From Escherichia phage SUT_E520: a stretch of DNA of 64,000 bases. The notes under the pieces were generated by a model that saw only the letters and a program-made list of their open reading frames with translations, had not been told where the DNA came from and did not search any database. Position numbers and translations under genes: made by a program. Each line of letters opens with the position of its first letter. The first letter of the stretch is position 1. Of the stretch, positions 31,336 through 31,412 are shown one piece after another. Location: sequence record OQ990040; one strand, given 5' to 3'.

Positions 31336-31412
31336 TGGTAGGGGTGGTGGGATTCGAACCCACAAAACCTGAATTTTAAGTCCAGTACCTATACCAATTC
31401 GATTACACCCCC
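31336..31412 (-). tRNA. tRNA with UAA anticodon (Leu-type) but short variable arm; A73
   Basis: acceptor GGGGGTG/CACCCCT, anticodon arm CTGGA-CTTAAAA-TTCAG, T-arm GTGGG-TTCGAAT-CCCAC, CCA; architecture parallels the UAG tRNA at 27167-27243. Confidence 0.5.

What the first reader, a model, noticed from the sequence alone, without database searches (positions are those of the whole stretch)
31336..31412. Short-variable-arm tRNA with a Leu-type UAA anticodon
Partner of the element at 27167-27243: perfect T-arm and acceptor, anticodon loop CTTAAAA, A73, 77 nt. Same caveat and same possible role in reading AT-rich Leu codons.
Basis: seen in the sequence. Interest (0 to 1): 0.4.

Follow-up and report, generated by a model that had tools for sequence, protein, structure and literature searches.

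The report
Short-armed leucine tRNA of T5-like phage
This is a real, already annotated leucine tRNA gene of a T5-like coliphage that lacks the long extra arm bacterial leucine tRNAs normally carry; it keeps the signals the host charging enzyme reads, and belongs to a large family of such tRNAs found mainly in phages.

Summary
Observation confirmed. Window 31336-31412 (- strand) is a 77-nt tRNA with encoded CCA, anticodon UAA, a 5-nt variable loop (GUUUU) and A73. ARAGORN calls it and Rfam scores it 59.9 bits (threshold 29). The window is a T5-like phage (Tequintavirus). The same gene (76/77 or better) is annotated tRNA-Leu in over 300 phage records. The curated record AJ604531 names it tRNAL2 and notes that a CUA-anticodon version is an effective amber suppressor.

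It is a class I tRNA-Leu, but keeps the features E. coli LeuRS reads:
- A73 and A15:U48
- G18G19 and A20a
- a 3-bp D stem with an 11-nt D loop, 10/11 identical to E. coli leuQ

UUA is the commonest Leu codon in the window (26% of Leu, against 4-13% in two E. coli gene samples).

A fixed-spacing pattern scan found at least 118 such tRNAs in viral contigs, mostly in tRNA clusters. Every stem pair shows compensatory changes, and A73 and U48 are invariant. Only about 28 turned up across 185,579 species genomes. Neighbouring Ser and Tyr tRNAs keep their long arms.

Verdict: a functional phage tRNA-Leu(UAA), most likely charged by host LeuRS. The gene is already known. The breadth of the phage class I Leu family seems little described. 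Charging with leucine is inferred, not shown.

The parts
31336..31412 (-). tRNA-Leu(UAA), class I (short variable loop), 77 nt including the encoded CCA; this is 'tRNAL2' of T5-like phages
   Evidence: ARAGORN. Rfam 59.9 bits. 100% identical to annotated tRNA-Leu in Salmonella phage S114 and Escherichia phage SUT_E1520, and 76/77 to tRNAL2 of AJ604531.
31376..31378 (-). Anticodon UAA (tRNA positions 34-36) in loop CUUAAAA; A36-A37-A38 is the E. coli MiaA motif
   Evidence: Sequence and ARAGORN anticodon position 35 of the 77-nt gene. MiaA/TrmL loop requirements from PMC4615657.
31364..31368 (-). Variable loop GUUUU, 5 nt; its last U is U48, the partner of A15
   Evidence: Segmentation. U48 is invariant in 68 of 68 family members although the search pattern left it free.
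31387..31403 (-). D arm: 3-bp stem AUC/GGU and 11-nt loop GAAUUGGUAUA, carrying A14, A15, G18G19 and A20a; this is the Leu-type architecture
   Evidence: 10 of 11 loop positions identical to E. coli leuQ (GAAUUGGUAGA), with the same 3-bp stem and 11-nt loop as leuZ, leuW, leuQ and T5 tRNALeu1.
31336..31339 (-). Discriminator A73 (31339) followed by encoded CCA (31338-31336)
   Evidence: Sequence. A73 is invariant in 68 of 68 family members although it lies outside the search pattern.
27167..27243 (-). Paralogous class I tRNA-Leu(UAG), 'tRNAL1' of the BF23/phage 5 type. It has the same D loop (GAAUUGGCAUA), the same GUUUU variable loop and A73
   Evidence: AJ604531 annotation. T5 itself has an 85-nt class II tRNALeu(UAG) at this position.
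32106..32134 (-). Promoter-like site (TTGCTA-17-TATAAT) upstream of tRNA-Ser(GCU). Its position corresponds to the annotated T5/phage 5 early promoter P15b, the likely start of the transcript carrying tRNA-Ser, tRNA-Ile2, a 61-aa ORF and tRNA-Leu(UAA)
   Evidence: Consensus scan, 10 of 12. P15b is annotated at the equivalent place in NC_005859 and AJ604531. Co-transcription is inferred.
31921..32090 (-). Upstream tRNAs of the same inferred unit: tRNA-Ser(GCU) at 32002-32090 (long arm kept) and tRNA-Ile2(CAU) at 31921-31995
   Evidence: ARAGORN and Rfam. Comparison with T5 tRNAIle2.
31514..31699 (-). 61-aa ORF with CxxC...CxxC motifs between tRNA-Ile2 and tRNA-Leu(UAA). Together with the tRNA it forms the 565-nt segment (31343-31907) that T5 replaces with the hegA HNH endonuclease gene
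   Evidence: ORF list. Window-versus-T5 blastn breakpoints. T5 annotation.
31153..31320 (-). 55-aa ORF starting 16 nt after the tRNA's CCA, with an AAGGA ribosome-binding site at about 31327-31331. The tRNA must therefore be cut out of a polycistronic tRNA-mRNA transcript
   Evidence: Sequence and ORF list. Equivalent 'ORF trn 2.3' with an RBS is annotated in AJ604531.

Best explanation
The element is a functional phage tRNA-Leu(UAA), the 'tRNAL2' gene of T5-like phages.

Proposed mechanism:
1. Host RNA polymerase transcribes it early in infection as part of a mixed tRNA-mRNA transcript. This is inferred from the P15b-like promoter.
2. Host RNases cut it out. CCA is already encoded.
3. Host LeuRS charges it with leucine. 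It lacks the long variable arm of bacterial tRNA-Leu, but E. coli LeuRS does not read that arm or the anticodon. It reads A73 and the tertiary core (A15:U48, G18G19, A20a, D/T-loop contacts), and all of these are present.
4. The anticodon loop CUUAAAA carries the A36-A37-A38 motif, so host MiaA/MiaB and TrmL/MnmEG should modify it like host tRNALeu(UAA). This step is inferred.
5. It then decodes UUA and, by wobble, UUG. That adds to the product of the host tRNALeu(UAA) gene leuZ for an AT-rich phage (39% GC) in which UUA is the commonest Leu codon.

What is shown: gene structure, conservation, covariation, presence of the identity elements, and the codon bias.
What comes from a database note: the CUA-anticodon derivative works as an amber suppressor in vivo.
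What is inferred: leucylation by LeuRS, the modifications, and the selective reason for the short arm.
For: - It is a tRNA: ARAGORN and Rfam at 59.9 bits.
- The window is a T5-like phage, 100% identical over 4 kb to SUT_E1520 and T5_ev212.
- 336 phage records carry the gene at 80% coverage or more, nearly all at 95% identity or more and mostly annotated tRNA-Leu.
That implies expression, processing, anticodon-independent charging and ribosomal use in E. coli.
- D arm, A73, A15/U48 and G1.U72 match E. coli tRNALeu genes.
- The published E. coli Leu identity set is A73, A15-U48, G18G19, A20a and D/T tertiary contacts. The long arm and the anticodon are dispensable, and arm-less variants are still charged (PMC9976931).
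- TrmL and MiaA need only the anticodon loop (PMC4615657).
- UUA is 26% and CUA 20% of Leu codons in the window. In E. coli ribosomal/EF genes they are 4% and 0.5%; in other E. coli genes 13% and 3%. These are the cognate codons of the phage's two Leu tRNAs.
- Family evidence: at least 118 class I tRNA-Leu(UAA) in viral contigs; 99% pairing with compensatory changes at all 20 pairs; A73, U8 and U48 invariant though unconstrained by the search.
- In the same loci Ser (113/114) and Tyr (49/53) tRNAs keep long arms while Leu tRNAs of all anticodons are mostly short. This fits loss of the arm only where the synthetase does not need it.
Against: - No aminoacylation or tRNA-sequencing data for this tRNA were found.
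- The suppressor statement is a GenBank note, not a paper I could read, and it does not say which amino acid is inserted.
- PMC6614811 reports that E. coli LeuRS failed to charge the type I tRNALeu(CAA) of S. coelicolor and describes EcLeuRS as charging only type II tRNALeu. Acceptance of a natural class I substrate is therefore not guaranteed.
- T5 itself lacks this gene; hegA sits in its place. An IMG/VR relative has deleted the whole block. The gene is therefore dispensable in at least some settings.
- Thermodynamic folding of the unmodified sequence alone does not favour the cloverleaf.
Confidence: 0.83

Rival explanations
1. Counter-defence or insurance tRNA. The molecule and its charging are the same, but it is kept mainly because it replaces or outlasts host tRNALeu when host or competitor tRNases, or the phage's own host shut-off, deplete the host pool. 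The missing long arm and C32 (host leuZ has U32) would make it a poor substrate for nucleases that recognise host class II tRNALeu. This is not exclusive of codon supplementation.
For: - T5-family tRNAs are already implicated in escape from tRNA-cleaving defences: tRNATyr against retron Eco7, tRNALys against PARIS, and the anticodon-loop mutation hypothesis (cited in PMC10644984; paper list).
- The arm loss is a systematic phage trait, rare in cellular genomes.
- Human SLFN11 is reported to cleave type II tRNAs, per a title cited in PMC13056530.
Against: - No nuclease specific for bacterial tRNALeu or for the class II arm was found in my searches.
- The one bacterial Schlafen studied against T5 cuts the anticodon arm of tRNALys(UUU), tRNAMet and phage tRNAAla. 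It does not single out class II tRNAs.
- Phage Ser and Tyr tRNAs in the same clusters keep the long arm. That argues against a general pressure to shed it.
- The codon bias alone already explains which two Leu isoacceptors are carried.
Confidence: 0.2
2. Identity switch or recoding. Because it lacks the class II arm, the tRNA is charged with an amino acid other than leucine, so UUA/UUG are partly read differently during infection.
For: - The class II arm is missing.
- EcLeuRS rejected one natural type I tRNALeu.
- The CUA derivative is charged independently of the anticodon, by an unidentified enzyme.
Against: - All positive E. coli Leu determinants are present and conserved family-wide.
- There is no G3:U70 (Ala), no long arm (Ser, Tyr) and no G-1 (His).
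- By established identity rules (PMC9976931 and my own knowledge), the remaining synthetases depend on anticodon bases that UAA does not supply. PheRS, the nearest case, needs G34.
- UUA is the most frequent Leu codon in the phage's own genes, so misreading it would damage every phage protein.
Confidence: 0.03
3. Non-decoding role or relic. The tRNA shape serves mainly as an RNase P/RNase E processing signal for the surrounding small-ORF mRNAs or as a homing-endonuclease target, or it is a decaying gene.
For: - It lies inside a tRNA-mRNA polycistron, 16 nt upstream of an ORF start and immediately before its RBS.
- T5 carries an HNH endonuclease gene exactly in its place.
- The gene is dispensable in T5 and in the L121 deletion variant.
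Against: - The anticodon loop, A73, encoded CCA, U33 and the T loop are conserved, and all stems co-vary across very divergent phages. That is the signature of selection on a decoding tRNA.
- The amber-suppressor note implies ribosomal function.
- The gene is at least 95% identical in over 300 T5-like genomes.
Confidence: 0.04

Closest known systems
tRNAL2 (tRNA-Leu, codon UUA) of Salmonella phage 5 (AJ604531) and the same gene in over 300 T5-like phage records
   Same: It is the same gene. Identity is 76/77 to phage 5 (U20 in the window, C20 in phage 5) and 100% to phages S114 and SUT_E1520. Synteny is the same: P15b, tRNASer3, tRNAIle2, small ORF, tRNAL2, ORF trn2.3.
   Different: Nothing of substance. 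The small ORF between tRNAIle2 and the tRNA is larger here: the gap is 508 nt against 216 nt in phage 5.
E. coli tRNALeu(UAA), gene leuZ, and the other host class II tRNALeu genes leuW and leuQ
   Same: Same anticodon and same A36-A37-A38. G1.U72, A73, the 3-bp D stem with an 11-nt D loop holding A14, A15 and G18G19, and U48 are shared. The D loop is 10/11 identical to leuQ.
   Different: - The variable region is 5 nt here against 13-15 nt with a stem in the host genes.
- C32 here against U32.
- The penultimate D-loop base is U here against G.
- The T loop is UUCGAAU here against UUCAAGU.
- There is no detectable blastn similarity to any E. coli chromosome, so it is not a recent host capture.
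Phage T5 tRNALeu1(UAG), 85 nt, class II
   Same: It is a T5-family phage tRNA-Leu with the same type of D arm and A73.
   Different: T5's copy keeps a 13-nt variable arm. The window phage has a class I tRNA-Leu(UAG) at that same locus, as BF23 and phage 5 do per the AJ604531 notes. T5 has no tRNA-Leu(UAA) at all.
Type I tRNALeu(CAA) of Streptomyces coelicolor (PMC6614811)
   Same: It is a bacterial-system tRNA-Leu with a short variable loop that coexists with type II tRNALeu and is served by a single LeuRS.
   Different: It is a chromosomal gene with anticodon CAA. Its own LeuRS does not use A73, and E. coli LeuRS could not charge it. Sequence relationship to the phage family was not tested.
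Cluster-encoded tRNALeu(UAG) with a short variable loop in Mycobacterium mucogenicum tRNA gene clusters (PMC6582537)
   Same: It is a short-loop tRNA-Leu inside a horizontally acquired tRNA cluster with HNH endonuclease genes, which the authors suggest came from phages.
   Different: Different host phylum and anticodon. It was only mentioned in passing, with no functional data.
Animal mitochondrial tRNALeu(UUR)
   Same: Class I tRNA-Leu with anticodon UAA. A73 and A14 are its main identity elements (PMC9976931).
   Different: It is an organellar tRNA with weakened D/T-loop interactions, charged by a dedicated mitochondrial LeuRS. Common descent was not tested, and I think it unlikely.

Membership tests
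tRNA (Rfam RF00005) | Covariance-model score at or above the curated gathering score | tested here: met
   59.9 bits against a gathering score of 29, E = 1.9e-10, full-length match to model positions 1-71.
tRNA (Rfam RF00005) | Cloverleaf supported by covariation, with U8, A14, G18G19, U33, the TUC..A T loop and a 7-nt anticodon loop | tested here: met
   ARAGORN cloverleaf. Across 68 relatives, 99.0% of cells pair, 20 of 20 pairs have changes on both sides, and 0 of 500 shuffles reach this. Conserved nucleotides are listed. Note that the acceptor stem was used as a filter (at least 6 of 7 pairs) and the loops were fixed by the search pattern. The D, anticodon and T stems were unconstrained.
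tRNA-Leu as recognised by E. coli LeuRS (published identity set) | Discriminator A73 | tested here: met
   A at 31339. Invariant in 68 of 68 family members. Rule from PMC9976931.
tRNA-Leu as recognised by E. coli LeuRS (published identity set) | A15:U48 Levitt pair; G18G19 and A20a placed in a Leu-type D loop | tested here: met
   D loop GAAUUGGUAUA on a 3-bp stem, 10/11 identical to leuQ. U48 is the last base of GUUUU. U48 is invariant in the family.
tRNA-Leu as recognised by E. coli LeuRS (published identity set) | Actual leucylation by LeuRS | not testable with these tools
   The only evidence is indirect: the GenBank note that the CUA-anticodon form is an effective amber suppressor.
Bacterial class II tRNA-Leu | Long variable arm (more than 10 nt, with a stem) | tested here: not met
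   The variable region is 5 nt, against 13-15 nt in leuZ, leuW, leuQ and T5 tRNALeu1. So it is not a class II tRNA. The arm is not an E. coli LeuRS identity element.
Type I (short-loop) tRNA-Leu | Leu anticodon combined with a 4-5-nt variable loop | tested here: met
   Anticodon UAA and variable loop GUUUU.
Type I (short-loop) tRNA-Leu | Common descent with the S. coelicolor or mitochondrial type I tRNALeu | not tested
T5-like phage tRNAL2 | Near-identical sequence and same genomic position | tested here: met
   76/77 to AJ604531 tRNAL2. Located between tRNAIle2(CAU) and the ORF trn2.3 equivalent.
tRNA-Ser / tRNA-Tyr (alternative identity) | Long variable arm (both); G73 for Ser | tested here: not met
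   Short loop and A73.
tRNA-Ala (alternative identity) | G3:U70 pair | tested here: not met
   The 3-70 pair is G-C.

The most novel reading that the evidence does not exclude
Phages maintain and exchange their own lineage of arm-less (class I) tRNA-Leu. In this reading the loss of the class II arm is adaptive rather than mere streamlining. It would make the phage tRNA invisible to host or rival factors that recognise bacterial tRNALeu through its long arm, such as tRNases, toxins or the phage's own host shut-off. Ordinary bacterial LeuRS, including the E. coli enzyme, would still charge it, contrary to the published view that EcLeuRS charges only type II tRNALeu.
Probability: 0.12. Interest if true: 0.7.

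Novelty: already known. Interest (0 to 1): 0.35.

Why it matters
The gene itself is ordinary: an annotated phage tRNA.

It does bear on one question in tRNA biology. Can a standard bacterial LeuRS use a natural tRNA-Leu without the class II arm? PMC6614811 treats coexistence of both types in one cell as a rarity of Streptomyces and reports that E. coli LeuRS rejects that type I tRNA.

T5-like phages appear to create the same coexistence in E. coli and Salmonella at every infection. The scans here suggest that arm-less tRNA-Leu is the usual form in many phage tRNA clusters, while Ser and Tyr tRNAs keep their arms. That gives a simple natural test set for LeuRS recognition rules and for the debate on why phages carry tRNAs (codon supply versus escape from tRNA-targeting defence).

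It also matters for annotation. Isotype predictors that expect a long arm may mislabel such genes.

Tried and rejected
- **Host homologue.** blastn of the tRNA against 5,426 complete E. coli genomes found no chromosomal match, only 23-nt T-arm hits to plasmid 'tRNA-OTHER' features. It is not a recent host capture.
- **Single-sequence folding.** The minimum-free-energy fold is a rod-like structure, 1.6 kcal/mol better than the cloverleaf, with z-score -0.63. Only 9 of 68 relatives give T and anticodon hairpins in their own minimum-free-energy fold. Thermodynamics alone is uninformative here, so covariation was used instead.
- **Prior literature.** Five of the eight literature searches were aimed at a prior description of arm-less phage tRNA-Leu. 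I found only the S. coelicolor study, a one-line remark on a Mycobacterium tRNA cluster, and general identity reviews. Older Russian-language T5/BF23 literature is not in the library, so absence of a description is not established.
- **Schlafen idea.** I considered that bacterial Schlafen nucleases might target class II tRNAs. The paper on a T5-restricting bacterial Schlafen shows cleavage of tRNALys, tRNAMet and tRNAAla anticodon arms, not class II tRNAs. There is no support.
- **Consensus search in isolated phages.** blastn with a family consensus against isolated phages returned a mix of class I and class II Leu tRNAs. blastn cannot separate the classes, so the fixed-spacing pattern scan was relied on.
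- **Non-tRNA pattern hits.** 18 of the 47 genome-collection hits are not called as tRNAs by ARAGORN. Many of them carry the class II-type D loop GGUAGA joined to non-pairing 3' parts. They were set aside as non-members.

Full report
**1. What is at the coordinates**

The - strand of window 31336-31412 reads GGGGGTGTAATCGAATTGGTATAGGTACTGGACTTAAAATTCAGGTTTTGTGGGTTCGAATCCCACCACCCCTACCA. ARAGORN calls it tRNA-Leu(taa), 77 nt. Rfam's tRNA model matches at 59.9 bits, against a gathering score of 29, with E = 1.9e-10.

The cloverleaf is as follows:
- a 7-bp acceptor stem with a G1.U72 wobble
- U8 and A9
- a 3-bp D stem (AUC/GGU) with an 11-nt D loop GAAUUGGUAUA
- A26
- a 5-bp anticodon stem with loop CUUAAAA (anticodon UAA at window 31378-31376)
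- a 5-nt variable loop GUUUU
- a perfect 5-bp T stem with loop UUCGAAU
- A73 and an encoded CCA

The one qualification is that the acceptor stem contains a G.U pair.

It is not met. The single-sequence minimum-free-energy structure is not the cloverleaf (-22.5 against -20.9 kcal/mol), but it retains the same anticodon hairpin. Comparative data, in section 6, support the cloverleaf.

**2. Where the window comes from**

The 4 kb around the element is 100% identical to Escherichia phages SUT_E1520, SUT_E420 and T5_ev212, and 521 T5-like records match it. The window is 38.8% GC. It carries a - strand cluster of 21 ARAGORN tRNAs between 24350 and 35700, plus two further Rfam hits at 31921-31995 and 36203-36274. 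This is the well-known tRNA region of the Tequintavirus group.

**3. The gene is already annotated**

The 77-nt sequence matches 352 phage records. Of these, 336 cover at least 80% of it, nearly all at 95% identity or more. They are mostly annotated tRNA-Leu.

The curated record AJ604531 (Salmonella phage 5 tRNA gene region) calls it tRNAL2, with this note: 'codon recognized: UUA; replacement of the anticodon with CUA sequence converts this tRNA into effective amber suppressor'. It differs from the window copy at one base, C20 against U20.

The partner element at 27167-27243 is tRNAL1 of the same record, 77 nt, which the record says is identical to the BF23 gene.

T5 proper (NC_005859) differs in two ways:
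- At the tRNAL1 position it has an 85-nt class II tRNALeu(UAG).
- It has no tRNALeu(UAA).

blastn breakpoints show that window 31343-31907, which holds the tRNA and a 61-aa CxxC ORF, is replaced in T5 by the hegA HNH endonuclease gene.

**4. Is it a leucine tRNA despite the short arm?**

I compared it with E. coli K-12 leuZ (UAA), leuW (UAG) and leuQ (CAG), fetched, and with T5 tRNALeu1.

All of them share the unusual Leu-type D arm: a 3-bp stem with an 11-nt loop holding A14, A15, U16, U17, G18, G19, N20 and A20a. The window's loop is identical to leuQ's at 10 of 11 positions. All have A73 and a U at position 48. leuZ also has G1.U72. The difference is the variable region: 5 nt here, against 13-15 nt with a stem in the others.

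The tRNA-identity review PMC9976931 summarises the experimental rules for E. coli. A73 is crucial. The A15-U48 Levitt pair, G18G19, A20a and the D/T-loop tertiary contacts are essential. Neither the anticodon nor the long variable arm is required, and variants lacking the arm remain substrates. Every positive determinant is present in the window tRNA.

Determinants of the other anticodon-independent synthetases are absent. The 3-70 pair is G-C, not G.U, which excludes Ala. There is no long arm and no G73, which excludes Ser. By established identity rules, the remaining synthetases depend on anticodon bases that UAA does not provide.

The loop CUUAAAA has the A36-A37-A38 motif. PMC4615657 shows that E. 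coli TrmL needs only the anticodon loop with i6A37, not the variable arm, and tolerates changes at position 32. Host-type anticodon modification is therefore plausible, though inferred.

There is one cautionary datum. PMC6614811 found that E. coli LeuRS could not charge the type I tRNALeu(CAA) of S. coelicolor, and describes EcLeuRS as charging only type II tRNALeu. Leucylation of the phage tRNA is thus well supported by sequence logic and by the suppressor note. It is not demonstrated.

**5. Why the phage would carry it**

I took 58 non-overlapping ORFs of at least 100 aa from the window (13,024 codons) and compared Leu codon use with two E. coli gene samples.

| Codon | Window, per 1000 | Window, % of Leu | E. 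coli ribosomal/EF genes (28), per 1000 | E. coli ribosomal/EF genes, % of Leu | Other E. coli genes (30), per 1000 | Other E. coli genes, % of Leu |
|---|---|---|---|---|---|---|
| UUA | 22.3 | 26% | 3.1 | 4% | 15.3 | 13% |
| CUA | 17.0 | 20% | 0.4 | 0.5% | 4.0 | 3% |

UUA is the commonest Leu codon in the window. The phage's two Leu tRNAs (UAA and UAG) are cognate to UUA and CUA, the two commonest Leu codons in the window; CUA shows the largest excess over the host samples (about 4-fold over the ordinary genes, about 40-fold over the ribosomal/EF genes) and UUA is about 7-fold up on the ribosomal/EF genes but only about 1.5-fold up on the ordinary genes. In K-12, leuZ is annotated tRNA-Leu(UAA) and leuW tRNA-Leu(UAG), while CAG has at least leuQ, leuP and leuV. 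That each of the first two is a single gene is from my own knowledge.

A promoter-like site at 32134-32106 (- strand, 10 of 12 matches) lies where T5 and phage 5 annotate early promoter P15b. The likely transcript runs tRNASer(GCU), tRNAIle2(CAU), the 61-aa ORF, tRNALeu(UAA) and then two small ORFs. The first of those ORFs has its RBS directly after the tRNA's CCA. Co-transcription is inferred.

**6. The short arm is a family trait of phage tRNA-Leu**

I scanned IMG/VR with a fixed-spacing pattern that enforces the class I layout: GAAYYGGNANA-N9-YTTAAAA-N15-TTCRANT.

- ARAGORN of these hits tRNA-Leu(taa), 75-78 nt long.
- They sit in tRNA clusters, with a median of 14 tRNAs per locus of about 10 kb.
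- There are 84 distinct sequences.

I aligned 67 of them in the standard register with the window copy, 68 rows in all (A1). The cloverleaf is paired in 99.0% of cells. All 20 pairs show changes on both sides. No shuffle out of 500, and no slid register, comes close.

Some caveats apply to that result. The loops and the spacing were fixed by the pattern, and I filtered on at least 6 of 7 acceptor pairs. The D, anticodon and T stems were unconstrained. The shuffle control does not correct for relatedness among the sequences.

Positions the pattern left free are nevertheless invariant: U8, U48, A73 and the penultimate D-loop U. A73 and U48 are LeuRS determinants.

The same pattern found only 47 places in one genome for each of 185,579 bacterial and archaeal species. 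Of these, 28 are ARAGORN tRNA-Leu(taa). Many lie in tRNA arrays on short metagenome-assembled contigs. The rest are not tRNAs. So this tRNA type is mainly a phage one.

Within the viral loci, Leu tRNAs of other anticodons are also mostly short (CAA 41 of 51, UAG 39 of 57). Ser tRNAs (113 of 114) and Tyr tRNAs (49 of 53) keep the long arm. The arm has been lost only for Leu, whose E. coli synthetase is documented not to need it (PMC9976931); that bacterial SerRS and TyrRS do depend on the arm is my own knowledge. These loci were selected for having a class I Leu(UAA), so the Leu proportions are biased. The Ser and Tyr comparison is not.

The penultimate D-loop base is U in 105 of 138 class I Leu tRNAs, but G in 15 of 20 class II ones. 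This could be a structural adjustment to the missing arm. That reading is speculative.

**7. Rivals**

- **Counter-defence reading.** The phage copy would survive or replace host tRNALeu that has been cleaved. It is compatible with current ideas about T5 tRNAs and with the near-invariant C32, where the host has U32. I found no nuclease that targets bacterial tRNALeu or the class II arm. The bacterial Schlafen that restricts T5 cuts tRNALys, tRNAMet and tRNAAla anticodon arms.
- **Charging with another amino acid.** This is unlikely given the conserved Leu determinants and the phage's own heavy use of UUA.
- **A purely structural or relic role.** The conservation pattern and the suppressor note speak against it. 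The gene is, however, dispensable in T5 and in a natural deletion variant.

**8. Comparison with what is known, and novelty**

The element is the already annotated tRNAL2 of T5-like phages, so I rate it 'already known'.

Type I tRNA-Leu is known from three places:
- animal mitochondria (PMC9976931)
- S. coelicolor (PMC6614811)
- a Mycobacterium tRNA cluster thought to be of phage origin, mentioned in passing (PMC6582537)

I found no paper in the library that describes arm-less tRNA-Leu as a general phage family, or that tests E. coli LeuRS on one. The older T5/BF23 literature is not covered there.

The modest interest lies in this gap. T5-like infection appears to place a natural class I tRNA-Leu in front of E. 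coli LeuRS, which PMC6614811 says charges only type II tRNA-Leu.

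Noticed in passing
window 25420-25506 (- strand): The 'tRNA-Thr(UGU)' here is 87 nt and built like a class II tRNA: 3-bp D stem, 11-nt D loop GAAUGGUUGAA, 14-nt variable arm with a 3-bp stem, and A73. 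T5 has an ordinary 75-nt tRNAThr at that position. GenBank notes say the CUA-anticodon version of the 87-nt form is an 'effective amber suppressor' while the T5 75-nt form is not. That hints at anticodon-independent charging and raises the question of which amino acid it carries. About 100 T5-like records have it, annotated tRNA-Thr.
   Followed up: partly
IMG/VR locus L121, 1293-1369, against window 27167-31412: In this T5-like contig, window position ~31349 is joined to ~27231. The ~4.1-kb block between the two class I Leu tRNA genes (window tRNAs Tyr through Ala) is missing, and a hybrid tRNA-Leu gene remains whose acceptor and anticodon stems no longer pair. The two paralogues appear to have acted as direct repeats for a deletion.
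   Followed up: partly
window 31343-31907, against T5 NC_005859 36372-37075: T5 carries the hegA HNH endonuclease gene exactly where this phage has tRNA-Leu(UAA) plus a 61-aa CxxC ORF. This looks like a cassette swap of the kind expected from homing endonucleases in the T5 tRNA region.
   Followed up: partly
window 36203-36274 (- strand): An Rfam tRNA hit (35.5 bits) that default ARAGORN misses. It has good T and acceptor arms, an irregular anticodon arm and no CCA. With a relaxed threshold ARAGORN calls it 'Ser(act)'. It lies just upstream of tRNA-Arg, in the place where T5 and phage 5 annotate the stable 'RNAX' of unknown function.
   Followed up: partly
window 31921-31995 (- strand): A tRNA found by Rfam (40.3 bits) but not by ARAGORN. 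It is tRNA-Ile2 with anticodon CAU, as annotated in T5. It differs from the T5 copy by one compensatory pair in the anticodon stem.
   Followed up: yes
window 29449-29531 (- strand): tRNA-Asn(GUU) is 83 nt with a 12-nt variable region, against 78 nt annotated in T5. This is another T5-family tRNA with a non-standard variable region.
   Followed up: no
loci L006-L125 (IMG/VR contigs): About 15 of the 84 distinct class I Leu(UAA) sequences use a shifted register ('..GA AGG GAAYTGGCATA CCT..'). They seem to form a second subfamily with a different D-stem arrangement. ARAGORN still calls them tRNA-Leu(taa), at 75-78 nt.
   Followed up: no
genome loci L126, L137, L157, L160, L162, L166 (Alphaproteobacteria): These pattern hits have a class II-type D loop (GGUAGA) and a Leu(UAA) anticodon arm. 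They are followed by 'CCAGU' and a T arm, and the acceptor halves do not pair. ARAGORN calls only L126 as a tRNA (Leu(taa)); the other five get no call. They may be tRNA-Leu remnants or hybrid sites, but this is unexplained.
   Followed up: no
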